A DNA stretch of 64,000 nt from Staphylococcus phage BSwM-KMM1. The notes beneath the pieces were generated by a model. That model had not been told where the DNA came from, did not search any database, and worked only from the letters and a program-made list of their open reading frames with translations. Of this stretch, positions 39,162-60,963 are shown piece after piece. Each line of letters opens with the position of its first letter. The first letter of the stretch is position 1. The stretch is taken from sequence record OP902294.1. One strand, 5' to 3'. A program made the position numbers and the translations under genes.

Positions 39162-39175
39162 GGAGACATAAAACA

Positions 39176-39537: not shown

Positions 39538-39543
39538 TAGCCA

Positions 39544-40920
39544 ATGGCATTAAATTTCACTACAATAACTGACAACAATGTTATTAAGGATTTGACAGTT
39601 CAAGTAAATAACATTGGGGAAGAATTAACAAAAGAAAGAAATATATTTGACATTACAGATGACTTAGTATATAATTTTAATAAGTCACAGAGAGTTAAGT
39701 TAACAGATGACAAAGGACTAGCTAAAGCCTATGGAAATATAACTACTCTTAAGGACATAAAAGAGCCAGGTTACTATTATATTAATGCAAGAGCCTTTGC
39801 AATGTTAACAGATAAACCTGATATAGAATCTATTGATGTAGTACTTCAGGTACTACCTTTAGAATCTTCTAACCGAGTAGTACAACACTTATATACTTTG
39901 TCTACTAATAATAGTCAAATTAAGACTATATATAGATATGTTTCAGGAAATTCAAGTTCAGAGTGGCAGTTTATTCAAGGACTACCAAGTAATAAAAATT
40001 CTGTTATATCAGGTTCTAACTTAGAAGATTTAACTTCCCCTGGAGTATACTTTGTAACAGGTATGACAGGCGGTATGCCTGATGGAGTTAGCTCAGGGTT
40101 CTTAGAATTAAATATAGATGCTAATGATAATAGATTAGCTAAGGTAACTGATATTGAAACAGGTAAACAATATACTAACATTAAAAAATCTGCCGGTGTT
40201 TATATAGGATGGGTAAAAGAGTTTGAACCTAAGGATATGGAAAAATACTTTATAAGTAGTATAAGAGAAGATGGTAATGCTTCTTTTCCTCTGCTAGTAT
40301 ACGCTAGTGATAACGTCACTTTCCAACAAGCTGTTTTAAATCATGTAGATAAAACAGGGCAAACAACGTTCACTTTCTATGTTCAGGGAGGCGTTGCAGG
40401 CTCTCCTATGACAAACAGTTGTAGAGGTATATTCATGTCAGATACCCCTGCCACTTCTAGTTTCCATGGTGTTTACAATGCAATAGGTACAGATGGTAGA
40501 AATGTTACAGGGTCTGTAAGTAGTGGAAACTGGACAACACCTAAAGCTTCTCCTTCCTATAAAGAATTATGGACTGGGGCACAATCATTTTCCTCTATTG
40601 GAACTTCCAAGAAGTTAGAAGACGATATAAGTAATTATTCATATGTAGAGGTTTATACTAAACATAAAACTGTAGAGAAAACTAAGGGAAATGATGATAC
40701 AGGAACTATTTGCCATAAGTTTTATTTAGATGGTAGTAAAACTTATGTTTGTTCAGGAACTTTTGTTTCAGGAGAAAAAACAGACAAAACAGTACCTGTT
40801 ACAGAATTTTATAGAGTAGGTATTAATTTTTCAGGAACAACTTGGAAAGTAGTAGATAGTGCAGTACAAAATAATAAAACTCAATACGTCACAAGAATTA
40901 TAGGTATTAATATGCCATAG
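39544..40920 (+). CDS. Second receptor-binding / tail fibre protein (458 aa).
   Basis: Intact ORF. Its size and position match the 458-aa RBP/tail-fibre gene that ends the structural module of K-like phages. Confidence 0.6.
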   Translation: MALNFTTITDNNVIKDLTVQVNNIGEELTKERNIFDITDDLVYNFNKSQRVKLTDDKGLAKAYGNITTLKDIKEPGYYYINARAFAMLTDKPDIESIDVVLQVLPLESSNRVVQHLYTLSTNNSQIKTIYRYVSGNSSSEWQFIQGLPSNKNSVISGSNLEDLTSPGVYFVTGMTGGMPDGVSSGFLELNIDANDNRLAKVTDIETGKQYTNIKKSAGVYIGWVKEFEPKDMEKYFISSIREDGNASFPLLVYASDNVTFQQAVLNHVDKTGQTTFTFYVQGGVAGSPMTNSCRGIFMSDTPATSSFHGVYNAIGTDGRNVTGSVSSGNWTTPKASPSYKELWTGAQSFSSIGTSKKLEDDISNYSYVEVYTKHKTVEKTKGNDDTGTICHKFYLDGSKTYVCSGTFVSGEKTDKTVPVTEFYRVGINFSGTTWKVVDSAVQNNKTQYVTRIIGINMP

Positions 40921-40946
40921 ACTAGGATAAACTCCTAGTCTTTTTT
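40921..40946 (+). terminator. Rho-independent terminator at the end of the structural module.
   Basis: ACTAGGA-taaac-TCCTAGT stem followed by CTTTTTTC. Confidence 0.7.
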
Positions 40947-40947
40947 C

Positions 40948-40976
40948 TTGACTTAATAAGCATTCTGTGCTATACT
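40948..40976 (+). promoter_or_regulatory. Sigma-A-type promoter: TTGACT, 17-nt spacer, TGcTATACT.
   Basis: Near-consensus elements ~30 nt upstream of the helicase gene RBS. Confidence 0.65.
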
Positions 40977-41007
40977 ATAACTCGTGTAAGGATATAAGGA
41001 GATTAAA

Positions 41008-42754
41008 ATGAAATTACGAATTAAGAACTTATATACCTATGTAGAATTTGAGGAGGATGATAAATACTTAAAAGATATATTTTTAAAGAGAGTCCATACT
41101 ACAATCGGGGCAAGACAGGAAGGGTTTCAATACAGCCCTGCATACAAGAGAGGTAGTTGGGATGGTTACGTAGACTTTTATGTTTATGAGGAAGATAAAT
41201 TCCCTACTGGACTTTTATTTAAGATTGAGTTATTATTAGGAGAGTTACAATCAAGATATAACTTCCAGTTTGAAACGATTGATGAACGTGATGAAAGTTT
41301 CTTATCAGAAGAGGATATTGATGATGAAATAACTTTACTAGATAATAATATCGGTCAGATAACTTTAAGAGACTATCAGTATGAGGCAGTATATAATAGT
41401 TTAACATTCTATAATGGTATTGCTCATTTAGCAACCAACGGAGGTAAAACAGAGGTTGCTAGTGGTATTATAGACCAATTACTTCCTCAGCTAGAGAGAG
41501 GAGAAAGAGTAGCTTTCTTCACAGGCTCTACAGAAATTTTTCATCAGTCTGCAGATAGGTTAAAAGAAAGATTAAATATCCCTATCGGTAAAGTAGGAGC
41601 AGGTAAGTTTGATGTTAAACAAGTTACAGTTGTAATGATACCTACATTAAACGCTAACCTTAAAGACCCAACACAAGGGGTTAAAGTTACACCTAAGCAG
41701 AATATTAGTAAAAAGATTGCACAAGAAATACTCCCTAAATTTGAAGGAGGTACTAACCAAAAGAAATTACTTAAAGTACTACTAGAAAATACAACACCAA
41801 AAACAAAGGTAGAGCAAAATGTATTAAATGTTTTAGAGTTAATTTATCAAAACAGTAAAACAGATGCAGAGGTCTTACTAAATCTAAAGAAACACAATGC
41901 TCACTTTCAAAAAGTTGTTAGAGAAAAGAATGAAAAGAAATATGATAAGTATCAAGATATGAGAGATTTTTAGACTCAGTGACTGTTATGATAGTTGATG
42001 AAGCTCATCACTCTAAATCAGACTCATGGTACAATAACCTAATGACTTGTGAGAAAGCACTTTATAGGATTGCACTAACAGGTTCTATAGATAAGAAAGA
42101 TGAATTACTGTGGATGAGACTACAAGCCTTGTTTGGTAATGTTATAGCTAGAACTACTAATAAGTTCTTAATTGATGAAGGACATTCAGCTAGACCTACA
42201 ATAAATATTATACCTGTAGCTAATCCTAATGATATAGACAGAATTGATGATTATAGGGAAGCTTACGACAAAGGTATAACAAATAATGATTTTAGGAATA
42301 AACTTATTGCAAAACTAACAGAAAAGTGGTATAATCAAGATAAAGGTACATTAATCATTGTAAACTTCATAGAGCACGGAGATACACTATCTGAGATGTT
42401 AAATGACTTAGACGTAGAACACTACTTCTTACATGGAGAAATAGACTCTGAAACTAGGAGAGAAAAATTAAATGATATGAGAAGTGGTAAACTAAAAGTA
42501 ATGATAGCTACATCTCTTATTGATGAGGGTGTAGATATATCCGGAATTAACGCATTAATATTAGGAGCCGGAGGTAAGTCACTAAGACAAACCTTACAGC
42601 GTATTGGTCGTGCATTACGTAAGAAAAAGATGATAATACCACACAAATATTTGATTTTAATGATATGACTAACAGATTTTTATACACGCATTCTAACGAA
42701 CGTAGAAAAATCTATGAAGAAGAGGATTTTGAAATAAAAGACTTAGGAAAATAG
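41008..42754 (+). CDS. SF2 (DEAD/DEAH-box) DNA helicase (~582 aa), frameshifted near 41975 and in an A5 run near 42640.
   Basis: Walker A-like LATNGGKTEV, motif II MIVDEAHHSK and a helicase C-domain (..IATSLIDEGVDISGINALILGAGGKS..QRIGRALR). The C-terminus continues as ..DDNTTQIFDFNDMTNRFLYTHSNERRKIYEEEDFEIKDLGK*. Confidence 0.75.
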
Positions 42755-42765
42755 GAGGGTAAGAG

Positions 42766-43731
42766 ATGGCAACAAAAACACAAAGAAAGCTATACCAATA
42801 TCTAGAGCAAAATGCTATAGAAAATAAATTTCATATTTCTACTAAGAAAGAACTAGCAGATTCTCTAGATGTTTCCATCTCTGCTTTATCCAATAACCTT
42901 AAAAAGTTAGAAGAAGAAAATAAAATTGTTACTGTATCTAAAAGAGGCAAAAACGGTGGTGTAGTAATAACTCTAGTAAGAGATTACAATACCGAAGAGT
43001 TAAAAGAGTTTAATGAGTCTAAGGATAATATTATTACGTCAGATTTACAATATGCTAAAGAGCTTAGAGAAAAACATTTCCCTTCATATAGATATGAAAG
43101 AAAAGAACAACGAAGACGTACAAAATTAGAAATGGCTCAGTATAACGCTATTAAAGATGAGAAGAGAAGAATTATAGCCGATATGAATTTTCATTCAGAA
43201 GGTCTCCCTTATCCTTCTAAGGAAGTATTTAACATGTCTTACGACCCTGAAGGTTTTTATAAAGCCTATATACTTTGTAAGCTTTATGACCAGTATGCTA
43301 TCTCACACATGGATGCTAAGCATACTAGTCATCTTAAAGCAATGAGTAAAGCAAAAACTAAAGATGAGTATGACTACCACCAACATATGTCTGAATACTA
43401 TAGAAATAAAATGATTCAGAACTTACCTAGAAATAGTGTAAGTGATAATTTCTTCGGTAGTAAAACATTTAATACATTTTATAATTTTTATCTAAAAGTA
43501 AAAGATAAAAATATTAACGTTTTTAAGTATATGCAGAATGTATTTAAGAATGTAACATTTTATTATGAGAATGGTATGCAACCAAATCCTATACCTTCTC
43601 CTAACTTCTTTAGTTCAGATAAGTATTTTAAAAACTATAATAATTATATTAAAGGAATAAAAAAGGTATTAATAATACCAATAGACATCTTGGGGATACA
43701 GATAGTGCTATCAATTCTTCAGACTATGTAA
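42766..43731 (+). CDS. Rep-like / winged-HTH DNA-binding replication protein (321 aa).
   Basis: The N-terminal wHTH-like segment (KKELADSLDVSISALSNNLKKLEEENKIVTV...) and a position between two helicase genes match the 'Rep protein' of K-like phages. Confidence 0.45.
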   Translation: MATKTQRKLYQYLEQNAIENKFHISTKKELADSLDVSISALSNNLKKLEEENKIVTVSKRGKNGGVVITLVRDYNTEELKEFNESKDNIITSDLQYAKELREKHFPSYRYERKEQRRRTKLEMAQYNAIKDEKRRIIADMNFHSEGLPYPSKEVFNMSYDPEGFYKAYILCKLYDQYAISHMDAKHTSHLKAMSKAKTKDEYDYHQHMSEYYRNKMIQNLPRNSVSDNFFGSKTFNTFYNFYLKVKDKNINVFKYMQNVFKNVTFYYENGMQPNPIPSPNFFSSDKYFKNYNNYIKGIKKVLIIPIDILGIQIVLSILQTM

Positions 43732-43760
43732 AGAACCCTGCTGTTTTACATTTACATCAG

Positions 43761-44378
43761 TTGTACACTACAGGATTGAATTCTACTTTACATGATATTG
43801 ATACTATGTTTGAGCAAGCATTAGATTTAGAGAATGCTTCTTATGGATTATTTGGAGATATGAAACATATTGTATTACTACAATATAATTCTATGATTGA
43901 AGAAGAAGTTAAGAACTTACCTGAAGAAGAAAGAGGTATTATTAATAAATATGTAAAACAATGTATAATTAACGAATATTCACCTACAAGTATCTCACCT
44001 TCTGCAAGATTATCTATGTTTACTATGCAGAAAGAACATATAGTTTCTAGTAAACAGTTAAACGGAGGTATTAGTAGAGAGGACTTATTACCACTGAGTC
44101 TAGGAGGTATAGTGAATAAAGATTCATTAAGAAGTATGGATATACAAAACTTAGAACAGAATGGTAATGAGTACCTTTATATGAGACAATTCACTTCTAC
44201 TTATTATATACTAAGAATGTTTGGGGATTACCTAGGATATGAAGTAAACTTAAGGGAAGTAAAATACATTGTAGAGAAATATAATTTAATTGATAAAATA
44301 CCATTGACAAAAGAGGGTATGTTGGATTATAATAAACTTATACATTTAGTAGAGGAAGAGGTTAATAACTATGAGTAA
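43761..44378 (+). CDS. Hypothetical protein (205 aa).
   Basis: Intact ORF whose 3' end overlaps the start of the next gene. Confidence 0.4.
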   Translation: MYTTGLNSTLHDIDTMFEQALDLENASYGLFGDMKHIVLLQYNSMIEEEVKNLPEEERGIINKYVKQCIINEYSPTSISPSARLSMFTMQKEHIVSSKQLNGGISREDLLPLSLGGIVNKDSLRSMDIQNLEQNGNEYLYMRQFTSTYYILRMFGDYLGYEVNLREVKYIVEKYNLIDKIPLTKEGMLDYNKLIHLVEEEVNNYE

Positions 44379-45813
44379 GAAAATAAAGGAGCTTATTCTT
44401 CATAAATCAATGAAGGATATACATTTTGCAAGAGAAGTACTAGACAATTTACCTAAGAACCTATTCTCAGCAGAGTCTGAGGATATGGGTTACTTATTTA
44501 CAGCTATAAAAAGAACAGCCCATATTTCAGATAAGATGTCAAATGAGGCATTAGCAATTAAAATAGAACAACTTATGGGTAACAACAAGGAAGATGAAGA
44601 GAAGGTAACTAAAACTCTAACTTACTTGGAAGACTTATATAAAGTAGACGTTAATGAGAAAGACGAGTCTGTTAACTATGAAATAGAAAAATACATTAAG
44701 ACAGAAATGTCTAAAGAAGTATTAGTTAAGTTTATTGCAGAAAATAAACAGGAGGACTCAGACAACTTACATGAGCTTGTAGATAAGCTAAAACAAATAG
44801 AAGTAAGTGATATTTCAGGAGGCAATGGGGAATTTATCGACTTCTTCGAAGACACTGAAAAGAAACAAGAATTATTAAGTAATTTAGCTACAAATAAATT
44901 CTCTACAGGCTTTAATTCTATTGATAATCATATTGAAGGTGGAATAGCACGAGGAGAGGTTGGATTGATTATAGCTCCGACAGGTAGAGGTAAATCATTA
45001 ATGGCATCTAACTTAGCTAAAAACTATGTGAAGAGTGGATTAAGTGTATTATATATTGCATTAGAGGAAAAAATGGATAGAATGGTTTTACGTGCAGAGC
45101 AACAAATGGCAGGCGTAGAGAAAAACCAACTTGTAAACCAAGACATGTCTTTAAATAGTAAAGTTTATGGTGCCTTACAAAATCACTATCAAAAAAATAG
45201 AAAGTTATTAGGTGACTTCTATATTTCTAAACACATGCCAGGTGAAGTTACACCAAACCAATTAGAACAAATTATTGTTAACACTACAATTAAGAAAGAT
45301 AAGAATATTGATGTTGTTATTATTGACTACCCACACTTAATGAGAAATCCTTATGCTAAGTACCATTCAGAATCAGATGCAGGAGGAAAACTGTTTGAAG
45401 ATATTCGTAGATTATCTCAACAATACGGATTTGTTTGTTGGACGTTAGCACAAACTAACCGTGGAGCATATGGTTCAGATGTTATTACAAGTGAACATGT
45501 TGAGGGTTCTCGTAAGATTGTCAACGCAGTGGAAGTATCCTTAGCAGTAAACCAAAAAGACGAAGAATTCAAGAGCGGTTTCTTAAGATTGTACTTAGAT
45601 AAAATCCGTAACAGCTCTAACACAGGAGAAAGATTTGTTAATCTTAAAGTAGAACCAACTAAGATGATTGTAAGAGATGAAACACCTGAAGAGAAACAAG
45701 AACATATTCAACTCTTATCAGATAATGGAAAAGAAGATACAAGTAAGTTCCAAAATAAAGATAATAAGATAGAAGCTATAAATAACACATTCGGAGGTTT
45801 ACCTGGAGTTTAA
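44371..45813 (+). CDS. DnaB-like replicative helicase (480 aa).
   Basis: RecA-fold C-terminal domain with Walker A GLIIAPTGRGKSLMASNLA and Walker B VVIIDYPHLM, plus an N-terminal helical domain. Confidence 0.7.
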   Translation: MSKKIKELILHKSMKDIHFAREVLDNLPKNLFSAESEDMGYLFTAIKRTAHISDKMSNEALAIKIEQLMGNNKEDEEKVTKTLTYLEDLYKVDVNEKDESVNYEIEKYIKTEMSKEVLVKFIAENKQEDSDNLHELVDKLKQIEVSDISGGNGEFIDFFEDTEKKQELLSNLATNKFSTGFNSIDNHIEGGIARGEVGLIIAPTGRGKSLMASNLAKNYVKSGLSVLYIALEEKMDRMVLRAEQQMAGVEKNQLVNQDMSLNSKVYGALQNHYQKNRKLLGDFYISKHMPGEVTPNQLEQIIVNTTIKKDKNIDVVIIDYPHLMRNPYAKYHSESDAGGKLFEDIRRLSQQYGFVCWTLAQTNRGAYGSDVITSEHVEGSRKIVNAVEVSLAVNQKDEEFKSGFLRLYLDKIRNSSNTGERFVNLKVEPTKMIVRDETPEEKQEHIQLLSDNGKEDTSKFQNKDNKIEAINNTFGGLPGV

Positions 45814-45831
45814 ATTTTTAATTAATACCAC

Positions 45832-45860
45832 TTGACATTTTATATGTTAGGTGGTATAAT
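45832..45860 (+). promoter_or_regulatory. Perfect consensus sigma-A promoter: TTGACA, 17-nt spacer, TATAAT (extended TGgTATAAT).
   Basis: Read directly. It is ~30 nt upstream of the sbcD RBS AAAGGAGAGG. Confidence 0.8.
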
Positions 45861-45891
45861 TATTTTATAAAGAAAAAAAGGAGAGGTTATT

Positions 45892-46917
45892 ATGAAGTTT
45901 GTATTTTTTACAGATAGTCATTTTCACTTATTTACAAACTATGCAAAACCTGATGATGAATTTGTAAATGATAGATTTAAAGAGCAAATAGAAGCATTAC
46001 AGAAAGTTTTTGATATTGCTAGGAAGGAAAAAGCTGATGTTATTTTTGGTGGGGATTTATTCCATAAGAGAAATAGTGTAGATACTAGAGTATATAACAA
46101 GGTCTTTGAAGTACTTGCTAGAAATAGAGATATTGATGTTTATATGTTAAGAGGTAACCATGATTCAGTAACTAATTCTTTATATACAAGTTCTAGTATT
46201 GAGCCTATTGGTTACTTACCTAATGTTCATATCTTTTCAAGTACTGATACATTTAGCTTTACTGATGTAAATTTAGTATTTGAACCTTATGGAGATGAAA
46301 CAGAAGAGATTAAAGAACATATTAAAGGGTCTTATGATGAAAATAAAATTAATATTTTAGTAGCACACTTAGGTGTTGAAGGGTCTTTAACCGGTAAAGG
46401 TTCCCATAGATTAGAAGGTGCATTTGGTTATCAAGACTTATTACCTGATAACTATGCTTTTATTCTATTAGGTCACTACCACAGAAGACAATACTTCCAA
46501 AACCCAAATCATTTTTATGGTGGCTCACTTATGCAACAATCATTTTCAGATGAGCAAGATTCTAATGGTGTACACTTAATAGATACAGAAAAAATGACTA
46601 CAGAGTTTATTCCTATTAATACTAGGAGATTTATTACTATCCAAGGAGAAGATATACCTGAGAACTTTGACCAACTTATAGAAGAAGATAACTTTATTAG
46701 AGTTATTGGTACCGCAAACCATGCTAAGGTTTTAGAAATGGATGAGAGTATGAAAGATAAAAATGTTGAAGTTCAGATTAAGAAAGAGTATACTGTAGAA
46801 AAACGTATAGATAGTGATGTATCCGATGACCCTTTAACAATTGCTAGTACTTATGCTAAGCAATATTCACCCGAATCAGAGAATGAAATACTTGAATGTT
46901 TGAAGGAGGTTCTATAG
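45892..46917 (+). CDS. sbcD: SbcD/Mre11-like recombination exonuclease (calcineurin-like phosphoesterase).
   Basis: Phosphoesterase motifs DSHF, GGDLFH, GNHD and GHYH in the canonical order. It precedes a Rad50/SbcC-like ATPase gene. Confidence 0.8.
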   Translation: MKFVFFTDSHFHLFTNYAKPDDEFVNDRFKEQIEALQKVFDIARKEKADVIFGGDLFHKRNSVDTRVYNKVFEVLARNRDIDVYMLRGNHDSVTNSLYTSSSIEPIGYLPNVHIFSSTDTFSFTDVNLVFEPYGDETEEIKEHIKGSYDENKINILVAHLGVEGSLTGKGSHRLEGAFGYQDLLPDNYAFILLGHYHRRQYFQNPNHFYGGSLMQQSFSDEQDSNGVHLIDTEKMTTEFIPINTRRFITIQGEDIPENFDQLIEEDNFIRVIGTANHAKVLEMDESMKDKNVEVQIKKEYTVEKRIDSDVSDDPLTIASTYAKQYSPESENEILECLKEVL

Positions 46918-47294
46918 TGAGAGGATACAGAAGATACTTAGATAAAACTGATGAAGAGAACTTAGCAGAAGACTGGGAGAAAGTAGCAGATGATTTATGG
47001 AAAGTTTTTGAAAATATGGAGCCTAAGATTAACAAACTAGATATTAGTAATATTGAGGACAAAGATTTAGATACAAAGAAACCTATTTTACAATTTCAAG
47101 ACTCGGATGGGGTAATAGAGAACATTTGTAATGTTGAAGGTTTAGAAAATGGTTTATCTAAAATGAAAAAGATTTTTGACGACAGTAATTTTGAAAAACA
47201 TTATTATAATAGAATTGTAGAACAGGATGAATACTATTGGATTGACTATGGTTCTCATCATTGTTTCTTTAGGGTTACGAAAGGGGATAAGTAA
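46914..47294 (+). CDS. Hypothetical protein (~127 aa).
   Basis: GTG start with a perfect AAGGAGG RBS overlapping the sbcD stop. The ORF track shows an in-frame ATG at 46896. Confidence 0.4.
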   Translation: MVRGYRRYLDKTDEENLAEDWEKVADDLWKVFENMEPKINKLDISNIEDKDLDTKKPILQFQDSDGVIENICNVEGLENGLSKMKKIFDDSNFEKHYYNRIVEQDEYYWIDYGSHHCFFRVTKGDK

Positions 47295-49208
47295 TGGTTG
47301 TATTTAAACAAGTAGAAGTTAATAATTTTTTAGCTATTAAAGAGGCTAAACTGGAGTTAGATAGTAGAGGTCTTATTCTCATTGAAGGGGAGAATAAATC
47401 TAATGAGTCCTTCCATTCTAATGGTGCAGGTAAATCAACTCTAATATCTGCCATTACTTACGCTTTATATGGTAAAACTGAGAAAGGATTAAAAGCAGAT
47501 GATGTAGTTAATAATATTGAGAAGAAAAACACATTTGTTAAACTACAGTTTGATATTGGAGAAGATAGTTATTTAATTGAACGTTACCGTAAAGATAAGG
47601 AAAATAAAAATAAAGTAAAATTATTTGTTAATGATAAAGAGATTACAGGTTCAACAAATGATGTTACTGATAAGCAAATACAAGATTTATTCGGTATTGA
47701 GTTTAATACCTACGTCAATGCTATTATGTATGGTCAAGGAGACATTCCTATGTTCTCTCAAGCTACAGACAAAGGTAAAAGGAAATATTGGAATCTATCA
47801 CTAAAACCGATGTGTATAAACAAGCACAAGATGTAGCAAAGAGAAAGTTAAAGAAGTAGAAGAAGAGCAGAATAAACTAAACCAAGAAATATATAAAATA
47901 GATTATCAATTATCTACCAAAGATGAGTATTTTCAAAAGAGGTAGAACAATATAATCAGTATAAGGAACAGTTACTTCAGATTGAGAACAACAATAAAGA
48001 AAAAGATAAAATGAGGGAACAAGAGGAGAAGCAAATAGAGGCTCAAATAGAGCAATTAACAGCTCAGATACCAACAATACCTAATGAACAATTTATGCAC
48101 TCAGAAGAGTACAATAAAGCCTCTCAGAGCTTAGATTTACTTTCTAATAAATTAACTGAGTTAAATCAAGTATATGCAGATTATAATACTAAAGAACAAG
48201 TACTAAAGTCTGAAATAGTAACGTTAAACAATAGTTTAAATCAGTTGGATACAAACGACCATTGCCCTGTTTGCGGTTCTCCAATAGATAACTCTCATAA
48301 ACTTAAGGAACAAGAAAACATCAATACTCAGATAGAGAATAAAAACAAGAAGTTAGTAGTGTAGAGAATATGAAAACTACTTATAAAGAAGCTATTGACA
48401 AAGTAAATGATAAATCACAAGAAATTAAAGATAGAATGGTACAGGAAGACCAACAAGAGAGAGAGCACAATAATAAAATCAATAATATTATACAAGAAGC
48501 TTCTAAAATTAAGTCAGACATTAGCTCACTAGAGAATAATAAGACTTATTTAAAGGTAAAATATCAACATCAATCTATACAAGGTTTAGAGAGAGAAGAA
48601 CCAAGTAAAGAAAAACATGAAGAAGAGAAAAAGAATTACAAAATACTATTGACAAACATGAGGATTATATAGTACACTTAGAAAGTAAGAAAGGTAAGTA
48701 TCAACAAGCAGTAGATGCTTTTAGTAATAAAGGAATACGTTCAGTAGTATTGGACTTTATTACACCATTCTTAAATGAGAAAGCTAATGAGTACCTTCAA
48801 ACACTATCAGGTTCAGATATTGAAATAGAATTCCAAACACAAGTTAAGAATACTAAAGGTGAACTAAAAGATAAGTTTGATGTTATTGTTAAGAACAGTA
48901 AAGGTGGAGGTTCATATAAATCAAACTCTGCAGGAGAACAAAAACGTATTGATTTAGCAATCAGTTTTGCAATACAAGATTTAATTATGAGTAAAGACGA
49001 GATATCTACAAATATTGCCCTTTATGATGAGTGTTTTGATGGGTTAGATACTATAGGATGTGAGAATGTAATTAGATTATTAAAAGACAGACTCAATACA
49101 GTAGGTACTATATTTGTAATTACACATAACCAAAGTTTAGCTCCCTTATTTGAGCAAACAATTAAAATAATAAAGGAAAACGGAATATCAAAATTGGAGG
49201 AAAAATAA
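47294..49208 (+). CDS. sbcC: SbcC/Rad50-like ATPase (~640 aa), fragmented by at least 3 frameshifts.
   Basis: N-terminal Walker A NGAGKSTLISAITYALYGK, a coiled-coil middle with the zinc-hook CPVCGSPI, and a C-terminal ABC signature SAGEQKRIDLAISFA with Walker B LYDECFDGLD. These lie on the collinear ORFs 47294-47836, 48011-48364, 48370-48672 and 48750-49208. Confidence 0.75.
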
Positions 49209-49807
49209 TGAAATTAAAGATTTTAGATAAAGATAACGGAACACTTAATGTGTTTCATCGTAACAAGGAATACAAGACAATAGACAATGTACCAACTGCT
49301 AATCTAATAGATTGGTACCCTTTAAGTAATGCTTATGAATATAAACTAAGCAGAAACGGTGAATACTTAGAACTGAAAAGGTTACGTTCAACACTACCTA
49401 CTTCATACGGGTTGGAAACTAATAATCAGAGTATTATTAGAGACAATAATCATAGATGTAAGATAGGGTATTGGTATAATCCTGCTGTAAGGAAAGATAA
49501 TTTAAAAATTATTGACAAAGCTAAACAATATGGGTTACCTATTATTACAGAGGAATATGATTCCGATATTGTAGAGCAAGGATTTAGAGACATTGGTGTA
49601 ATATTCCAAAGTCTTAAAACAATAGTAGTTACTAGGTACTTAGAAGGTAAAACAGAAGAAGAACTAAGAATTTTTAATATGAAATCTGAAGAATCACAGC
49701 TTAATGAAGCACTTAAAGAGAGTGATTTTTCCGTAGACTTAACATATAGTGACTTAGGTCAAATTTATAATATGTTACTACTAATGAAGAAAATCAGTAA
49801 ACAGTAA
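49208..49807 (+). CDS. Candidate gp67-like anti-sigma-A factor (199 aa).
   Basis: The inference is from synteny and size only. A ~198-aa gene between sbcC and the primase is where phage G1/K gp67, the sigma-A region-4 binder, is located. I cannot confirm the sequence from memory. Confidence 0.45.
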   Translation: MKLKILDKDNGTLNVFHRNKEYKTIDNVPTANLIDWYPLSNAYEYKLSRNGEYLELKRLRSTLPTSYGLETNNQSIIRDNNHRCKIGYWYNPAVRKDNLKIIDKAKQYGLPIITEEYDSDIVEQGFRDIGVIFQSLKTIVVTRYLEGKTEEELRIFNMKSEESQLNEALKESDFSVDLTYSDLGQIYNMLLLMKKISKQ

Positions 49808-49818
49808 GGAAGGATAAT

Positions 49819-50880
49819 ATGAGGTTTGAAGACTTTTTGACACAGGAATTAGGAGAACCAAAAGAGAATACTATAGGTGAGTTAAGATATTGTTGTCCGT
49901 TTTGTGGAGAAAAAGTTATAAGTTCTATGTTAAACAAGCGTTAGATTCTAGTAATGGTCAGTACCACTGTAAAAAGTGTGATGAGTCAGGTAATCCTATA
50001 ACGTTTATGAAAACTTATTATAACATCACAGGTAAACAAGCTTTTGATTTACTAGAATCTAAAAACATAGATATAGAGAAAGCCTCTGTACTTACATCAA
50101 ACAATAAGGATTTAACAGAGTCAGAGAAACTTATACTAATGCTTAGAGGAGTACACCAAGAGAATAAGAACTCAATAAAACCACCTAAGTTACCTGTTGG
50201 TTTTAAATTGATAAAAGATAATTTGAATAACAAAGAGATAATACCTTTTTAAAGTATCTAAAGGGAAGAGGAATAACATTAAACCAAATTATTAATAATA
50301 ATATAGGTTATGTCATTAATGGATACTTTTATAAATCTGATGGGGAGACCAAAGCACCTCTTAGAAATAGTATTATATTTTTCACATATGATAATGAAGG
50401 AAAGTATCAATACTGGAATACTAGAAGTATAGATAAGAATCCCTATATAAAATCTATTAACGCTCCTGCTAAACAAGATGAAGTAGGTAGAAAAGATATT
50501 ATATTTAATTTAAATATAGCAAGAAAGAAAAAATTCTTAGTTATAACTGAAGGTGTATTTGATGCTTTAACTTTCCATGAATATGGAGTAGCAACATTAG
50601 GAAAACAAGTAACAGACAATCAGGTACAGAAGATATTGGATAGTGTAGATAAAGATACTTCTATCTATATTATGTTAGATACAGATGCATTAGACAATAA
50701 CATAGATTTAGCATATAGATTAAAAACACATTTTAATAAGGTATACTTTGTACCTCACGGTGACGAAGATGCTAATGATATGGGAACAAAAAAGCATTTG
50801 AGCTTTTACAAAGTAATAGGGTATTAGTAACACCTGAAAGTATACAGAGTTACAAAATACAACAAAAACTTAAACTTTAA
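49819..50880 (+). CDS. DNA primase (zinc-binding domain plus TOPRIM), fragmented by at least 2 frameshifts.
   Basis: N-terminal zinc-binding motif YCCPFCGEK...HCKKCDESG, and a TOPRIM motif FLVITEGVFDALTFHEYG with an acidic cluster IMLDTDALD, on collinear frames including ORFs 49890-50252 and 50636-50827. Confidence 0.7.
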
Positions 50881-50882
50881 GC

Positions 50883-50911
50883 TTGACCTTTTAATCATTT
50901 TATGTTATACT
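50883..50911 (+). promoter_or_regulatory. Sigma-A-type promoter: TTGACC, 17-nt spacer, TGtTATACT.
   Basis: Near-consensus elements after the primase gene. Confidence 0.6.
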
Positions 50912-50945
50912 AGTAATTAAGAAATCAATAAAGGAGATAAATTTA

Positions 50946-51737
50946 ATGGCAGATAATAAAAAGATATTTTAGAATTTGTAGATGAGTACATTACAGCTAT
51001 GAGGGTTGGTAATGAGCAAAGACAGCACCAACTAGAAGAATTAGGTAAGGAAGAGACAGCAACGTTAACTGATGTAGCTTTAGCTATTACTAACCTTATG
51101 ATAGGTGTAAATAGTCAAATGATTGCGTTAGAAAATAATACAGAATTAAACTTAAATATTTTAATTGATGCTTTATACAAAGCAGAACTTATTAATGATG
51201 ATGTCCTAGACCACATTCAAGACTCAATTGATAAATCAGAAGAAGAAGAAAAAATAAAACAGAAGAAAAAGGAGAACAAGAATAATGGAAAAAATATTAG
51301 CACACACACAAAAGGTATTAGTCAAGAAGATATGGCAACATGGGTTGAAGCAATCACTGAAGGTACAGTAGAGGGTAAAGAGATTGATAAAGAAACAGCT
51401 AAGAAATTAGACCGAATCGGTTCTAGAAGTGTTTCCTTAGAAGAAGCAACTCGTATTGCAAAAGTTATTAATGCTGTATCAGCACAAGAAACAACTTCAG
51501 CTTTTAATGAAGCCTTTAATTTAATTGACCTTCTAATGATTATCTTAGAAGATGAAGTAGGGGTAACAGAAGAGCAAGTATCAAGAGCACAAAAAACGTT
51601 GAAGGAAAAAGAGAAGCTTATCTAAAAGATAAACAAGAAGAGTTACGTCAAAAACAACAAGAAGAAACAAAAGAAGAAACTGAGTCTGACAGCAATGAAA
51701 AAGTAATTCAGTTGAAGAAAAATGACGAACAGTAAGA
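50946..51737 (+). CDS. Acidic hypothetical protein (~265 aa) with frameshifts near 50965 and 51620.
   Basis: MADNKK.. continues into ..ILEFVDEYITAMRVGNEQ... (ORF 50999-51625) and on to ..KDKQEELRQKQQEETKEETESDSNEKVIQLKKNDEQ*. RBS AAAGGAGATAAA. Confidence 0.4.
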
Positions 51738-52174
51738 AAAAAGGGGATACATTCGAAAGAAAGATAGCTAAAGAATTGACTGCTTGGTGGGGATACCAGT
51801 TTAATAGGTCTCCTCAATCAGGTGGTGCTTCATGGGGTAAAGATAATAATGCTGTCGGAGATATAGTAGTACCTCAGGAAGCTAATTTTCCTTTAGTAGT
51901 AGAATGTAAACATAGAGAAGAATGGACGATTGATAATGTCCTACTTAACAATAGAGAGCCTCACACTTGGTGGGAGCAAGTAATTAATGATAGTAGCAAG
52001 GTGGATAAAACACCTTGCTTAATATTTACTAGAAATAGAGCTCAGAGTTACGTTGCCTTACCTTATGATGAAAAAGTATATGAGGACTTAAGAGATAATG
52101 AATATCCTGTTATGAGAACAGATTTTATTATTGATAACATACGAAAAGATAAATTTTTTATGATGTCCTTATAA
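51722..52174 (+). CDS. PD-(D/E)XK nuclease, a putative Holliday-junction resolvase (150 aa).
   Basis: Motif GDIVVPQEANFPLVVECKHRE (D ... E-C-K). It is small and sits in the replication/recombination module. Confidence 0.55.
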   Translation: MTNSKKKGDTFERKIAKELTAWWGYQFNRSPQSGGASWGKDNNAVGDIVVPQEANFPLVVECKHREEWTIDNVLLNNREPHTWWEQVINDSSKVDKTPCLIFTRNRAQSYVALPYDEKVYEDLRDNEYPVMRTDFIIDNIRKDKFFMMSL

Positions 52175-52344
52175 CTACCATGAGTGGGTTGACCTCATTT
52201 ACACCTTCTTATATTATATCTTGCTACGACAAAAAGATATAAAACCGTACAAGAAGGTCGAGTCTAATTTATCTGAGGTAAGTAAGCATGAAGATGAATT
52301 GATTGATGACCTTCTTAATGATATATAAGGAAGGTAAGATAGGT

Positions 52345-52737
52345 ATGACAAGTAAAGAAAGACCATTAATTGTGTATTTTTCAGGGACAGGACAAACAGA
52401 AAGACTAGTAAACAAGATTAACATTAATAACTCTTTTGAAACCTTTAGAGTTAAAAATGGAAAAGAGAAAGTAGACAAACCTTTTATATTAATAACACCA
52501 ACATATATGAAAGGTGCAATACCTAAACAAATAGAAAGATTTTTAGAAATTAATGGGAGCCCTAAAGAAGTTATTGGTACAGGAAATAAACAATGGGGCT
52601 CTAATTTCTGTGGAGCAAGTAAGAAGATTTCAGAGATGTTTAAGATTCCTTTAATTGCTAAAGTAGAGCAATCAGGACACTTTAACGAAATACAACCAAT
52701 ATTAGAACACTTTAGTAATAAATACAAAGTAGCGTAA
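52345..52737 (+). CDS. nrdI: NrdI flavodoxin-like protein.
   Basis: LIVYFSGTGQTERLV (FMN-binding loop), ~130 aa, immediately upstream of nrdE. RBS AAGGAAGGTAAGATAGGT before ATG 52345. The ORF track extends to 52303. Confidence 0.75.
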   Translation: MTSKERPLIVYFSGTGQTERLVNKININNSFETFRVKNGKEKVDKPFILITPTYMKGAIPKQIERFLEINGSPKEVIGTGNKQWGSNFCGASKKISEMFKIPLIAKVEQSGHFNEIQPILEHFSNKYKVA

Positions 52738-52751
52738 AGGATGAGAGATAT

Positions 52752-54865
52752 ATGGCAACATATGGTAAATGGATTGAGTTAAATAATGAGATAACTCAAT
52801 TAGATGACAATGGAAAAAATAAACTCTATAAAGACCAAGAAGCTTTAGATGAGTATTTAAAATATATTGAAGATAACACAAGAGAATTTAATAGTACAGT
52901 AGAAAGAATTAGATTATTGACAAAAGAAGGGACTTATGATAAGATATTTGATAGTGTTCCTGATACTATTATTGATGAAATGACTAAGTTAGCTTACAGT
53001 TTTAACTTTAAGTTCCCTAGTTTTATGGCAGGTCAAAAGTTCTATGAATCTTATGCTTCAAAACAATACGATAAAAATGATAAACCTGTATTTGTTGAAG
53101 ACTATGAGCAACATAATGTTAGAGTAGCTTTATATCTATTCCAAAACGATTATGTAAAAGCTAGAGAATTATTGATTCAACTTATGGAACAGACATTCCA
53201 ACCATCTACACCAACTTATAACAACTCAGGACAAGCTAACAGAGGTGAATTAAGTTCATGTTACTTGTTTGTAGTAGATGATTCAATTGAGTCTCTAAAC
53301 TTTGTTGAAGATAGTGTAGCTAATGCTAGTTCTAATGGTGGGGAGTTGCTATTGATTTAACTAGAATAAGACCTAAAGGTGCTCCAGTACGTAATAGACC
53401 TAATTCAAGTAAAGGTGTTATTGCTTTTGCTAAAGCTATTGAGCATAAAGTAAGTATCTATGACCAAGGTGGAGTTAGACAGGGAAGTGGAGCAGTTTAC
53501 TTAAACATATTCCACAACGATATTTTGGATTTATTAAGTTCTAAGAAAATTAATGCTAGTGAATCAGTAAGACTAGATAAATTATCTATAGGGGTTACAA
53601 TACCTAATAAATTTATGGAATTAGTTAAAGAAGGTAAACCTTTCTATACTTTTGATACTTATGACATTAATAAAGTGTACGGTAAGTACCTAGATGAATT
53701 AAATATTGATGAATGGTATGAAGAGTTACTAAACAATGATAAGATTAATAAAGTAAAACATGATGCTAGAGAAGTTATGACAGATATTGCTAAAACACAA
53801 CTAGAATCAGGATACCCTTACGTATTCTATATTGACAATGCTAATGATAATCACCCACTTAAAAACTTAGGTAAAGTTAAAATGAGTAACTTATGTACAG
53901 AAATTTCTCAATTACAAGAAGTATCAGAGATACACCCTTATGCATATAGTGATAAGAATATTATTAACAGAGATGTTGTTTGTACATTAGGTTCCCTTAA
54001 CTTAGTTAATGTGGTTGAAAAAGGTTTATTAAATGAGTCTGTAGACATTGGTACAAGAGCATTAACAAAAGTTACTGATATTATGGATTTACCATACCTA
54101 CCTAGTGTTCAAAAAGCAAATGATGATATTAGAGCTATTGGTTTAGGTTCAATGAATTTACATGGGCTTTTAGCTAAGAACATGATTAGTTATGGTTCTA
54201 GAGAAGCATTAGACCTGGTAAATAGTCTATATAGTGCTATTAACTTCCAGTCTATTAAAACTTCTATGTTAATGGCTAAAGAAACAGGTAAACCTTTTGC
54301 AGGCTTTGAGAAATCAGATTATGCTACTGGTGAATACTTTGTACGCTATATTAGAGAGTCTAACCAACCTAAAACAGAAAAAGCTAAGAAAGTATTAAGT
54401 AAAATTTATATCCCAACTCAAGATGACTGGGATAAGTTAGCAAAAGAAGTTAAAGTTCACGGATTATACAATGGATATAGAAAAGCTGAGGCACCTACTC
54501 AATCTATATCATATGTACAGAACGCTACAAGTTCTATTATGCCAGTACCTAGTGCTATTGAGAACAGACAATATGGAGATATGGAAACATATTACCCAAT
54601 GCCTTATTTAAGCCCTATAACTCAGTTCTTCTATGAAGGAGAAACAGCTTATAAGATTGATAATAAACGTATTATTAATACAAGTGCGGTAGTTCAGAAA
54701 CACACAGACCAAGCAGTATCTACTATTCTTTATGTAGAATCAGAAATACCAACTAATAAATTAGTATCGTTATATTACTATGCTTGGGAGCAAGGATTAA
54801 AATCATTATATTACACACGTTCACGTAAACTTTCTGTTATTGAATGTGAAACATGTTCGGTTTAG
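52752..54865 (+). CDS. nrdE: Ribonucleotide reductase class Ib large subunit NrdE (~704 aa), uninterrupted by introns, with one frameshift near 53350.
   Basis: The N-terminus MATYGKWIELNNEITQLDDNGK... (NrdE-type ATP-cone-less start) continues after a frameshift into ..GVAIDLTRIRPKGAPV...NLCTEI...C-terminal ...SV. Confidence 0.85.
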
Positions 54866-54887
54866 GAAGGAAATAGATATGGATATT

Positions 54888-55927
54888 ACACAAAAAGTAA
54901 AACAACATAATAAAAATGCAGTATTAAAAGCAACAAATTGGAATATTGAAGATGACGGTATGTCTGATATTTATTGGGAGCAAGGAATCTCCCAATTTTG
55001 GACTCCTGAGGAGTTTGATGTATCTAGAGACTTAAGTTCATGGAACAGTTTATCAGAGAGTGAAAAGAACACTTATAAGAAAGTCCTTGCAGGGCTCACA
55101 GGGCTCGATACGAAGCAAGGAGGGGAAGGTATGAACTTAGTATCCTACCATGAACCAAGACCTAAATACCAGGCTATATTTGCGTTTATGGGTGGTATGG
55201 AGGAGATACATGCTAAATCTTACAGTCATATCTTCACAACATTATTAAGTAACAAAGAAACAAGTTATCTATTAGATACCTGGGTTGAAGAAAATGATTT
55301 CTTAACTGTTAAAGCTCAATTTATTGGATACTACTATGACCAATTACTAAAACCTAACCCTACAGTATTCGATAGATATATGGCTAAAGTAGCTAGTGCA
55401 TTCCTAGAAAGTGCATTATTCTACTCGGATTTTATTATCCGTTATTACTTGCAGGCAGAGGTCAAATGACTCAATCAGGAGCTATCATTTATAAGATAAC
55501 TCAAGATGAATCTTATCATGGTTCAGCAGTAGGATTAACAGCTCAATATGATTACAACTCATTAACTGAAGAAGATAAAGTAAGAGCAGACAAAGAAACT
55601 TATGAGTTACTGAACATTCTATATGCAAATGAAGTAGCGTATACACACAGTCTATATGACCCATTAGACTTAAGTGAAGATGTAATCAACTATGTACAGT
55701 ATAACTTTAATAGAGCACTTCAAAACTTAGGTAAAGAAGACTACTTTAATCCTGAACCTTATAACCCTATTGTAGAGAACCAAACCAATGTAGATAGATT
55801 ACGAAATGTAGATTTCTTCAGTGGTAAAGCAGATTATGAAAAATCTACAAACATTAAGGATATTAAAGATGAGGATTTCTCATTCTTAGACAGTAAAGAA
55901 TATGATACTGCTAAAGAATTCCTATAA
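54888..55927 (+). CDS. nrdF: Ribonucleotide reductase small subunit NrdF (~346 aa), with a frameshift near 55465.
   Basis: Di-iron ligand motifs (..EEIHAKSYSHIF.., ..DESYHG..) on collinear ORFs 54840-55469 and 55466-55927. The start is ATG 54888 with RBS AGGAAGGAAA. Confidence 0.8.
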
Positions 55928-55944
55928 AAAGGAGAAAAGATATT

Positions 55945-56274
55945 ATGGATAGAAATGAAGCAATGGATTTATTAAGCAAAACAGAGATACTATTTAAAAA
56001 ACATGATGAGTTTTCATGTGTAAGTGACATAAATGACCCTATCAAGTTATTTAGTAACTCACAAGATGTTAAAGCAGACGATATGTCTAAGTCATTTCAG
56101 TTAGAGTTTATGCATGACATGACCATGTATACTCTATCTTATGGCTCAGGACAGCTAAAGCTTATTGACTTAGCAGAAGGCTATGAAGCACAGAAAGCAA
56201 CAGTAGTTAACTCATTTCCCGAAATTATTAAAACATTAGAAAAGGATGATTCAGAAGATGGAAAACATGAATAG
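55945..56274 (+). CDS. Hypothetical protein (109 aa).
   Basis: Intact ORF with RBS AAAGGAGAAAAG. Confidence 0.4.
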   Translation: MDRNEAMDLLSKTEILFKKHDEFSCVSDINDPIKLFSNSQDVKADDMSKSFQLEFMHDMTMYTLSYGSGQLKLIDLAEGYEAQKATVVNSFPEIIKTLEKDDSEDGKHE

Positions 56275-56578
56275 TTTAGTAGATTTAAATACAGCAATTA
56301 GACAAAAGAAAGATGTTATTGTAATGATTACACAGGATAACTGTGGTAAATGTGAAATTTTAAAAAGTGTAATTCCGATGTTCCAAGAGTCAGGGGATAT
56401 TAATAAACCTATCTTGACACTTAATTTAGATGCAGAAGATGTAGATAGAGAGAAAGCAGTTAAGTTATTTGATATTATGAGTACACCAGTACTTTTAGGT
56501 TATAAAGATGGAGAACAAGTTAAGAAATACGAAGACCAAGTTACACCAATGCAATTACAAGAATTAGAGTCACTTTAA
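56258..56578 (+). CDS. Thioredoxin/glutaredoxin-like protein (NrdH-like).
   Basis: CGKC (CxxC) active-site motif in a ~106-aa protein following the nrd genes. The ORF track starts at 56246. Confidence 0.7.
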   Translation: MENMNSLVDLNTAIRQKKDVIVMITQDNCGKCEILKSVIPMFQESGDINKPILTLNLDAEDVDREKAVKLFDIMSTPVLLGYKDGEQVKKYEDQVTPMQLQELESL

Positions 56579-56579
56579 T

Positions 56580-56608
56580 TTGGAATTTCCTACTATCTGT
56601 GCTATACT
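56580..56608 (+). promoter_or_regulatory. Sigma-A-like promoter: TTGGAA, 17-nt spacer, TGcTATACT.
   Basis: Imperfect -35 paired with an extended -10. Confidence 0.5.
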
Positions 56609-56649
56609 ATAATAGTACAAGGTAGTAGGATTTTTTTAATGAAAGGAAG

Positions 56650-57382: not shown

Positions 57383-57391
57383 GGTGATTAT

Positions 57392-57697: not shown

Positions 57698-57711
57698 ATC
57701 TCTTCTTTTTT
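57686..57711 (+). terminator. Rho-independent terminator.
   Basis: GAAGAGA-aataaa-TCTCTTC stem followed by TTTTTTATT. The stop codon lies in the loop. Confidence 0.7.
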
Positions 57712-57712
57712 A

Positions 57713-57741
57713 TTGACAAGGATTAAAATGTATGGTATAGT
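57713..57741 (+). promoter_or_regulatory. Sigma-A-type promoter: TTGACA, 17-nt spacer, TGgTATAGT.
   Basis: Consensus -35 and extended -10, immediately after the terminator. Confidence 0.7.
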
Positions 57742-57770
57742 ATTATTAAGTTAAAAAGGAGAGGGATTTA

Positions 57771-60955: not shown

Positions 60956-60963
60956 AAAAGTAT

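What the first reader, a model, noticed from the sequence alone, without database searches (positions are those of the whole stretch)
49208..49807. gp67-like anti-sigma-A candidate between sbcC and primase
A 199-aa gene occupies exactly the position and size of ORF67 of phage G1/K, whose product binds S. aureus sigma-A region 4 and selectively blocks -35/UP-element-dependent host promoters. This genome itself relies on many strong consensus -35/-10 promoters, which makes the interplay interesting. The assignment is by synteny only.
Basis: inference. Interest (0 to 1): 0.4.

Follow-up and report, generated by a model that had tools for sequence, protein, structure and literature searches.

The report
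Phage gp67 sigma-binding protein orthologue
The 199-codon gene is a clear, intact orthologue (94% identical) of the well-studied staphylococcal phage G1 protein gp67, which binds the host's main sigma factor and shuts down ribosomal-RNA-type promoters.

Summary
Confirmed and ordinary. Window 49208..49807 (+) is an intact 199-aa ORF with a GGAGG ribosome-binding site; its ATG overlaps the sbcC stop codon (TAATG). It matches PDB 4G6D/4G8X/4G94 chain "ORF067" (phage G1 gp67) end to end, E = 9.5e-124, with 187 of 198 residues identical. It contains both Pfam gp67 domains (PF20880, PF20881) and belongs to PHROG 1070 "anti-sigma factor". An AlphaFold model superposes on 4G6D_B at TM 0.94 and 1.5 Å. 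All 11 substitutions fall in variable columns of the family, and dN/dS is about 0.03. The protein is 100% identical in Staphylococcus phage PG-2021_29, and the gene is annotated "anti-sigma factor" in PSU5 and phiIPLA-RODI at the same position. The order sbcD, sbcC, gp67, primase holds in five Herelleviridae lineages. The target, sigma-A region 4, is identical between S. aureus and B. subtilis apart from the last two residues. It blocks alpha-CTD/UP-element contacts, which mainly affects rRNA promoters, and phage promoters are proposed to escape through extended -10 elements. The promoter of this operon (45832..45860) has such an element. Binding itself was not testable here. Side observation: the assembly under-calls homopolymers, which fragments sbcC and primase but not gp67.

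The parts
49208..49807 (+). gp67 / Asf orthologue CDS (199 aa, stop included)
   Evidence: ORF. Full-length match to PDB ORF067, E = 9.5e-124. PHROG 1070 'anti-sigma factor', E = 5.9e-70. Maps 1:1 onto the annotated 'anti-sigma factor' CDS of PSU5.
49196..49200 (+). Ribosome-binding site GGAGG, 7 nt before the ATG. The ATG overlaps the sbcC stop codon (TAATG at 49206-49210), which suggests translational coupling.
   Evidence: Read directly from the sequence.
49238..49468 (+). N-terminal beta-rich domain (residues 11-87), Pfam G1_gp67_N
   Evidence: PF20880, 94.4 bits against a cutoff of 27. The model shows strands E2-5, 10-17, 21-29, 43-47 and 53-58.
49499..49798 (+). C-terminal helical domain (residues 98-197), Pfam G1_gp67_C
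   Evidence: PF20881, 123 bits against a cutoff of 27. The model shows helices H92-107, 119-145, 150-157, 161-170 and 174-198.
45832..45860 (+). Likely operon promoter: perfect TTGACA-17-TATAAT with an extended -10 (TGG before TATAAT) and an 86% A/T upstream tract. It lies in the helicase-sbcD gap, 3.35 kb upstream of gp67.
   Evidence: Conserved with an identical spacer in PG-2021_16, PSU5 and phiIPLA-RODI. It fits the description of the G1 gp67 promoter in PMC3694059. Its function is inferred.
48649..48678 (+). Possible internal promoter inside sbcC (TTGACA-18-TACACT, 10/12), 530 nt upstream of gp67
   Evidence: The same position in PSU5 and RODI reads TTGACA-18-TACAAT, 11/12. This is weak evidence: it lies inside coding sequence and is only a consensus match.
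47294..49208 (+). Upstream neighbour sbcC/Rad50-like exonuclease subunit, split into 4 ORFs here by five 1-nt homopolymer contractions
49819..50880 (+). Downstream neighbour DnaG-type primase, split by three 1-nt homopolymer contractions. It starts 11 nt after the gp67 stop, so it is probably co-transcribed.

Best explanation
The gene encodes the orthologue of phage G1 gp67 (Asf, phage K gp137) in a Kayvirus-like staphylococcal myophage (Herelleviridae, Twortvirinae). By homology to the characterised protein, it is made from the DNA-replication/recombination operon (helicase, promoter, sbcD, orf, sbcC, gp67, primase) in the early-to-middle phase. It binds region 4 of the host primary sigma factor sigma-A and travels with RNA polymerase holoenzyme. 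It does not prevent -35 recognition or core binding. [quoted passage not shown] That selectively lowers transcription from UP-dependent promoters, chiefly the rRNA operons, and so stops host growth. Most other promoters stay active, including phage promoters with an extended -10. Shown here: identity, domain architecture, fold, selection, synteny, invariance of the target, and an extended -10 on the operon promoter. Inferred from G1 gp67: sigma binding and the alpha-CTD/UP mechanism.
For: Full-length match to the crystallised ORF067 (4G6D/4G8X/4G94), E = 9.5e-124, 11 differences in 198 residues. Pfam PF20880 and PF20881 both far above cutoff. PHROG 1070 'anti-sigma factor'. AlphaFold model with pLDDT 90.2 superposes on 4G6D_B/4G8X_B at TM 0.94-0.95 and rmsd 1.3-1.5 Å, with no other PDB fold matching. 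The 11 substitutions sit in high-entropy columns (mean 2.65 vs 1.71 bits; permutation p = 0.0014 when entropy is computed from distant rows only), and none touches an invariant or near-invariant column. dN/dS is 0.03-0.09. The protein is 100% identical in PG-2021_29, 98.5% identical to the PSU5 'anti-sigma factor', and the same slot is annotated that way in phiIPLA-RODI. The gene order is conserved in Twortvirinae, Bastillevirinae, Jasinkavirinae, Brockvirinae and Mooreparkvirus. S. aureus sigma-A region 4 is identical to that of B. subtilis over about 70 residues, so the target surface is the same in any plausible staphylococcal host. Mechanism and promoter-escape model: PMC3694059 and PMC3792026. 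The operon promoter has TGn.
Against: No binding or transcription assay exists for this variant. The primary structure paper (Cell 2012) was not available, so the 11 substitutions could not be checked against the published list of sigma-contact residues. Seven of them cluster in two patches (65-75 and 119-121) whose roles I could only judge from conservation and model confidence. The timing of expression is inferred from operon position and from transcriptomes of related phages and was not measured for this phage.
Confidence: 0.9

Rival explanations
1. It is a classical AsiA-type anti-sigma factor that binds sigma region 4 and blocks -35 recognition, shutting off all -35-dependent host promoters. 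This is the original Dehbi 2009 model and part of the first reader's wording.
For: Historical interpretation of G1 gp67, summarised in PMC3694059. Some recent papers still describe Asf as 'inhibiting sigma70' (PMC9241854). Database names say 'anti-sigma factor'.
Against: Osmundson & Darst report that the co-crystal structure leaves the DNA-binding and core-binding surfaces of sigma free, that the -35 result could not be reproduced, and that gp67 does not inhibit most -10/-35 promoters, including its own. Early transcription is not shut off in Kayvirus infection (PMC7698491). There is no sequence or fold similarity to AsiA or to anything other than gp67.
Confidence: 0.04
2. Its main biological role is temporal control of the phage's own transcription, not host shut-off. 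It would damp phage early/middle promoters that depend on UP elements and lack an extended -10, and free RNA polymerase for the phage late sigma factor.
For: The gene is a positionally conserved member of the replication module in five Herelleviridae lineages, which fits a core developmental function. Eight of 15 strong sigma-A-type promoters in the window lack TGn and have A/T-rich upstream regions, for example 13546, 14016, 39647 and 44304. Transcriptome papers on Kayvirus and on the Listeria phage CKA15 put forward this idea.
Against: This is hypothesis only. gp67 alone is enough to arrest S. aureus growth through rRNA promoters. The genome is 68% A/T, so A/T-rich upstream tracts are weak evidence for UP elements. 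This role is compatible with the best explanation (same biochemistry, additional targets) and does not exclude it.
Confidence: 0.05
3. The ORF is non-functional or mis-called in this assembly, for example a pseudogene or an artefact of the error-prone sequence.
For: The window has many 1-nt homopolymer errors that break neighbouring genes.
Against: No indel lies within 49208-49807. The length is identical to the PSU5 and PG-2021_16 genes, the protein is 100% identical to that of PG-2021_29, and purifying selection is strong.
Confidence: 0.01

Closest known systems
Staphylococcus phage G1 gp67 (ORF067; PDB 4G6D, 4G8X, 4G94), also known as phage K Asf/gp137
   Same: Same length class (199 vs 198 aa), 94.4% identity over the whole protein, the same two Pfam domains, the same predicted fold (TM 0.94), the same slot between sbcC and primase, and the same kind of upstream consensus promoter with an extended -10.
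   Different: Eleven conservative or loop substitutions (G11A, Y22H, I34V, T65S, E70D, T71D, S75D, D103E, S119A, D120N, I121T; window residue first). There is one extra C-terminal Gln, produced by TAG->CAG with read-through to the next TAA, and shared with PSU5 and PG-2021_16. The nearest phages were isolated on coagulase-negative staphylococci, not on S. aureus.
Phage Twort ORF065 and the SEP1-like, Listeria P100-like, Bacillus SPO1-like, Enterococcus and Lactobacillus Herelleviridae homologues
   Same: Same family (PF20880 and PF20881 in P0001-P0016), the same gene position, and shared invariant residues W36, Y37, P38, Y45, N98, A105, Y187, M189, L190, M193 and K195.
   Different: Only 25-45% identical. 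Annotation is inconsistent ('hypothetical', 'putative repressor', 'RNA polymerase sigma factor'). Apart from growth inhibition by the Twort homologue (PMC3694059), their function is untested.
Phage T4 AsiA
   Same: A small phage protein that binds region 4 of the host primary sigma factor and stays on the holoenzyme.
   Different: No sequence or fold relationship. AsiA remodels sigma region 4 and blocks -35 recognition, whereas gp67 leaves -35 recognition intact and interferes with alpha-CTD/UP-element contacts.
Phage T4 ADP-ribosylation of alpha-CTD R265 (as cited in PMC3694059)
   Same: The same functional outcome: loss of UP-element use and therefore of robust rRNA transcription.
   Different: It is a covalent enzymatic modification of alpha, not a stoichiometric sigma-bound blocker, and the proteins are unrelated.

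Membership tests
Phage G1 gp67 family (Pfam PF20880 + PF20881; PHROG 1070) | Two-domain architecture, G1_gp67_N followed by G1_gp67_C, each above the Pfam gathering score | tested here: met
   PF20880: 94.4 bits, residues 11-87. PF20881: 123 bits, residues 98-197. Both cutoffs are 27.
Phage G1 gp67 family (Pfam PF20880 + PF20881; PHROG 1070) | Full-length sequence similarity to the crystallised ORF067 | tested here: met
   phmmer E = 9.5e-124, residues 1-198 aligned to 1-198 without gaps, 187/198 identical.
Phage G1 gp67 family (Pfam PF20880 + PF20881; PHROG 1070) | The gp67 fold (a beta-rich N-domain plus a helical C-domain, with no other known structural relatives) | tested here: met
   AlphaFold2 model with pLDDT 90.2 and pTM 0.85. 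Foldseek against PDB: 4g6d_B TM 0.94, rmsd 1.5 Å; 4g8x_B TM 0.95. The next hit has E = 1. At 94% identity this is expected.
Phage G1 gp67 family (Pfam PF20880 + PF20881; PHROG 1070) | Retention of the family-conserved residues. According to PMC3694059 the conserved surface residues form the sigma-A region 4 binding site. | tested here: met
   All 12 invariant and 13 near-invariant columns of the 22-sequence alignment are retained, and the 11 differences from G1 lie in variable columns. The explicit contact list from the Cell 2012 paper was not available.
Phage G1 gp67 family (Pfam PF20880 + PF20881; PHROG 1070) | Genomic position between sbcC-like exonuclease and DnaG-type primase in a Herelleviridae genome | tested here: met
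   Window gene map. The same order is found in PSU5, RODI, Goe3, List-36, EfaM_A2, Lbab1 and Bc431v3.
Phage G1 gp67 family (Pfam PF20880 + PF20881; PHROG 1070) | Physical binding to region 4 of the host primary sigma factor | not testable with these tools
   Indirect support only. The target sequence in 4g6d_A and 8x6f_E (S. aureus) is identical to B. subtilis SigA 299-369 apart from the last two residues, so the target is invariant across candidate hosts.
Phage G1 gp67 family (Pfam PF20880 + PF20881; PHROG 1070) | Selective inhibition of UP-element-dependent (rRNA) promoters and growth arrest of Staphylococcus | not testable with these tools
   Known for G1 gp67, and growth arrest also for the Twort homologue (PMC3694059, PMC3792026). 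Inferred here by orthology.
AsiA-type anti-sigma factors (block -35 recognition) | Sequence or fold similarity to AsiA | tested here: not met
   phmmer against PDB at E <= 10 returns only ORF067 plus three chance hits. The Pfam scan gives only the gp67 domains. Foldseek against PDB gives no other match with E < 1.

The most novel reading that the evidence does not exclude
In this lineage, whose nearest relatives were isolated on coagulase-negative staphylococci, the substitutions clustered at residues 65-75 and 119-121 might alter a second interface and not the invariant sigma contact. That interface could be with the alpha-CTD, with DNA, or with an unknown phage partner. gp67 might also act mainly on the phage's own UP-dependent promoters that lack TGn, as a timing switch. 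Neither possibility is excluded, because only conservation and model confidence, not contacts, could be examined.
Probability: 0.08. Interest if true: 0.35.

Novelty: already known. Interest (0 to 1): 0.1.

Why it matters
gp67 is one of the few phage host-takeover proteins in Gram-positive bacteria with a solved mechanism. Correctly labelling it helps annotate therapeutic Kayvirus-type phages. This copy adds nothing new. It is identical to a protein already in public records and nearly identical to the crystallised one, and the question of how phage promoters coexist with it already has a published hypothesis (extended -10 escape). The practical result is a firm annotation, plus a warning that this assembly has homopolymer errors that break neighbouring essential genes.

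Tried and rejected
(1) I tried to obtain the sigma-contact residues of gp67 from Osmundson et al., Cell 2012 (PMC3604623 and DOI) and the original Dehbi 2009 paper (PMC2698411). None is held, so I used family conservation as a proxy for the interface. (2) I considered scanning genome collections for sigA of coagulase-negative staphylococci to test target variation. I dropped this once one search showed that region 4 is identical even between S. aureus and B. subtilis. (3) I considered a relationship to sigma factors, because some distant homologues are annotated 'RNA polymerase sigma factor'. I rejected it because no sigma domain appears in Pfam and no sigma fold match appears in PDB. (4) I checked Rfam and tRNA scans of the whole window for an embedded RNA element and found none. 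(5) I looked for the Kayvirus late-promoter motif near the gene. Exact copies occur only at 3.4-33 kb, none in 41-64 kb, so nothing indicates late-class expression. (6) A first attempt to align the promoter region used wrongly guessed coordinates and was replaced by a pattern scan. (7) Complex prediction (gp67 plus sigma region 4) is not possible with the single-chain structure tool and its input restrictions.

Full report
OBSERVATION. The ORF list shows a 199-aa ORF at 49208..49807 on the + strand. The sequence shows GGAGG at 49196-49200, seven bases before the ATG, and the ATG overlaps the stop codon of the upstream ORF (TAATG), a typical translational-coupling arrangement. The next ORF starts 11 nt after the stop codon.

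IDENTITY. The E-value is 9.5e-124, and query residues 1-198 align to chain residues 1-198 without gaps. There are 11 differences (94.4% identity): G11A, Y22H, I34V, T65S, E70D, T71D, S75D, D103E, S119A, D120N, I121T, window residue first. Pfam finds both dedicated domains, G1_gp67_N (94.4 bits) and G1_gp67_C (123 bits), each against a cutoff of 27. PHROGs places it in phrog_1070, 'anti-sigma factor', at E = 5.9e-70. An AlphaFold2 model built on 16 homologues has mean pLDDT 90.2. It superposes on 4G6D_B and 4G8X_B at TM 0.94-0.95 and rmsd 1.3-1.5 Å, and the next PDB hit has E = 1. That agrees with the published remark that gp67 has a fold of its own.

WHICH GENOME. The 4-kb neighbourhood is 98.3% identical to seven 'Staphylococcus phage PG-2021' records, which were isolated from wastewater on S. 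xylosus, S. equorum, S. succinus, S. epidermidis and Mammaliicoccus vitulinus. It is 96.9% identical to the vB_SauM_EW phages, 94.3% to vB_SurM-PSU5 and about 87% to classical Kayvirus genomes such as phiIPLA-RODI. The protein is 100% identical to the one encoded by PG-2021_29 and 98.5% identical to the PSU5 protein annotated 'anti-sigma factor'. RefSeq annotates the same slot of phiIPLA-RODI as 'anti-sigma factor'. The window is therefore a Kayvirus-like member of Herelleviridae/Twortvirinae, and this gene is already in public records under this name.

IS IT A LIVE GENE? Against phiIPLA-RODI the gene has 68 synonymous and 15 non-synonymous differences (dN/dS 0.028). Against PSU5 the counts are 8 and 3 (dN/dS 0.088). 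Against PG-2021_16 they are 7 and 0. The extra C-terminal Gln relative to G1/RODI comes from TAG->CAG followed by TAA, and PSU5 and PG-2021_16 share it. In a 22-sequence family alignment spanning five Herelleviridae lineages, the 11 positions that differ from G1 are among the most variable. Their mean column entropy is 2.65 bits against 1.71 overall. The permutation p-value is below 1e-4 with all rows, and 0.0014 when entropy is computed only from distant homologues. None coincides with an invariant column (M1, W36, Y37, P38, Y45, N98, A105, Y187, M189, L190, M193, K195) or a near-invariant one. Four of them lie in the segment 61-80, which is also the least confident part of the model (pLDDT 71-79). 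Osmundson & Darst state that the conserved surface residues of gp67 map to the sigma-A region 4 binding site, so the variable positions are unlikely to be contacts. This is an inference, because the contact list in the Cell 2012 paper could not be read.

CONTEXT. Mapping the PSU5 annotation onto the window gives this order: helicase 44371-45813, sbcD 45892-46917, a PHROG-2773 protein of unknown function 46917-47294, sbcC 47294-49208, gp67 49208-49807, primase 49819-50880, two unknowns, a RusA-like resolvase, then nrdI. Family scans of the window's own ORFs confirm SbcD (Metallophos; PHROG 100), SbcC (AAA_23, Rad50 zinc hook, Walker B; PHROG 77) and primase (DnaG zinc ribbon; PHROG 47 and 32622). 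The order sbcD, sbcC, gp67-like, primase recurs in Bacillus phages Goe3 and Bc431v3, Listeria phage List-36, Enterococcus phage EfaM_A2 and Lactobacillus phage Lbab1.

TRANSCRIPTION SIGNALS. The nearest strong + strand promoter upstream that lies between genes is at 45832..45860. It is TTGACA, a 17-nt spacer ending in TGG, then TATAAT, which makes it a perfect consensus with an extended -10, and it follows a tract that is 86% A/T. It is conserved with an identical spacer in PG-2021_16, PSU5 and phiIPLA-RODI. This matches the published description of the G1 gp67 promoter: perfect -10/-35, A/T-rich upstream, an extended -10, and no inhibition by gp67 in vitro. A weaker promoter-like site inside sbcC sits 530 nt upstream of gp67 (48649..48678, 10/12) and is positionally conserved in the relatives at 11/12. 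Its significance is uncertain. No terminator-like site lies between the 45832 promoter and the primase gene. Exact copies of the Kayvirus late-promoter core TGTTATATTA occur only at 3.4-33 kb in the window. Together with transcriptome reports that Kayvirus host-takeover genes, and the Listeria-phage homologue, peak in the middle phase, this places gp67 in the early-to-middle replication operon. That placement is inferred.

THE 'INTERPLAY' POINT. Across the window there are 15 sites matching at least 11 of 12 consensus positions. All are on the + strand, against about 4.7 expected on both strands from shuffles, so the genome does use many strong sigma-A-type promoters. Seven of the 15 carry TGn, against a TG dinucleotide background of about 5%. 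This enrichment is what the published escape hypothesis predicts. Eight lack TGn and have A/T-rich upstream regions, so they could in principle be gp67-sensitive, an idea already raised in transcriptome papers. In a 68% A/T genome that is weak evidence.

MECHANISM. For G1 gp67 the literature held here reports the following. It binds S. aureus (not E. coli) RNAP through sigma-A region 4. It does not block -35 recognition or core binding. It prevents the alpha-CTD from using UP elements, so it inhibits only UP-dependent promoters such as rrn, and this is enough to stop growth. The Twort homologue also inhibits growth. The target is remarkably constant: S. aureus SigA 296-367 (4g6d_A, 8x6f_E) is identical to B. 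subtilis SigA 299-370 (7ckq_F). Any staphylococcal host of this phage therefore presents the same surface. At 94% identity, with all family-conserved residues retained, transferring the mechanism to this protein is a safe inference, but it remains an inference.

COMPARISON AND NOVELTY. This is a member of the gp67 family by every criterion I could test: domains, full-length similarity, fold, conserved residues and genomic position. The two functional criteria, sigma binding and UP-specific inhibition, cannot be tested in silico here. It is not an AsiA-type anti-sigma factor in sequence, in fold, or (according to the literature) in mechanism. The gene is already known, so interest is low.

SIDE OBSERVATIONS. 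Relative to PG-2021_16 the window has 94 one-base indels. Of these, 82 are deletions in the window and about 45 fall in homopolymers of five or more bases (19 A-runs that are 6 long in PG-2021_16 and 7 that are 7 long). At the sites examined, PSU5 and RODI agree with PG-2021_16 and have intact genes. The window assembly therefore systematically under-calls homopolymers. This splits sbcC (five sites), primase (three sites), nrdE and other genes. The gp67 ORF escapes this because no indel falls within it. Further minor observations are listed separately.

Noticed in passing
whole window; e.g. 47780, 47840, 47938, 48345, 48632, 49914, 50250, 50790, 50962, 51294, 51610, 52159, 52235, 53343: Systematic one-base contractions of A/T (and some G) homopolymers relative to PG-2021_16, PSU5 and RODI. 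There are 82 deletions against 12 insertions in the window, and about 45 fall in runs of 5 or more. They fragment sbcC, primase, nrdE and other essential genes, so they are almost certainly sequencing or assembly errors, not biology.
   Followed up: yes
window 45825..45857: A 14-bp-stem inverted repeat (ATACCAC...GTGGTAT) brackets the -35 and runs into the -10 of the consensus promoter downstream of the helicase gene. It could be the helicase terminator overlapping the promoter, or an operator. It is conserved in relatives as part of the identical spacer.
   Followed up: partly
window 45813..45892: The window and PG-2021_16 go straight from helicase to sbcD. PSU5 (282 nt) and phiIPLA-RODI (420 nt) carry an extra small hypothetical ORF in this gap.
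   Followed up: partly
window 46205..46350 (inside sbcD): A short patch with many clustered indels and substitutions relative to PG-2021_16 and PSU5. It looks like a locally divergent or mosaic segment within an otherwise 96-98% identical region.
   Followed up: no
window 24224..27501 and 1..32865: The first half of the window is only 87-93% identical to PG-2021_16, against 96.5% for 32885-63999. About 3.3 kb (24224-27501) gave no alignment at all. This suggests mosaicism, possibly in tail or receptor-binding genes.
   Followed up: no
window 13049..61809: All 15 near-perfect sigma-A-type promoters (at least 11/12) are on the + strand, and 7 of them carry an extended -10 TGn, against a background of about 5%. 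Five exact copies of the Kayvirus late-promoter core TGTTATATTA are also all on the + strand, confined to 3435-32989.
   Followed up: partly
relatives Stab20 (LR215718) and Zeno (PQ626786), between sbcC and the gp67 gene: These phages carry an HNH homing endonuclease gene inserted between sbcC and the gp67 homologue. The window has no such insertion (the two genes overlap by one base).
   Followed up: no
protein P0004; loci L006, L007: A 150-aa partial protein, 95% identical to this one, is deposited in NCBI as a Klebsiella pneumoniae hypothetical protein, which is probably contamination of that assembly. Distant homologues are variously annotated 'putative repressor' (Enterococcus EfaM_A2) and 'RNA polymerase sigma factor' (Lactobacillus Lbab1 and some Bacillus phages). 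Neither the Pfam result nor the fold result for this family supports those names.
   Followed up: partly
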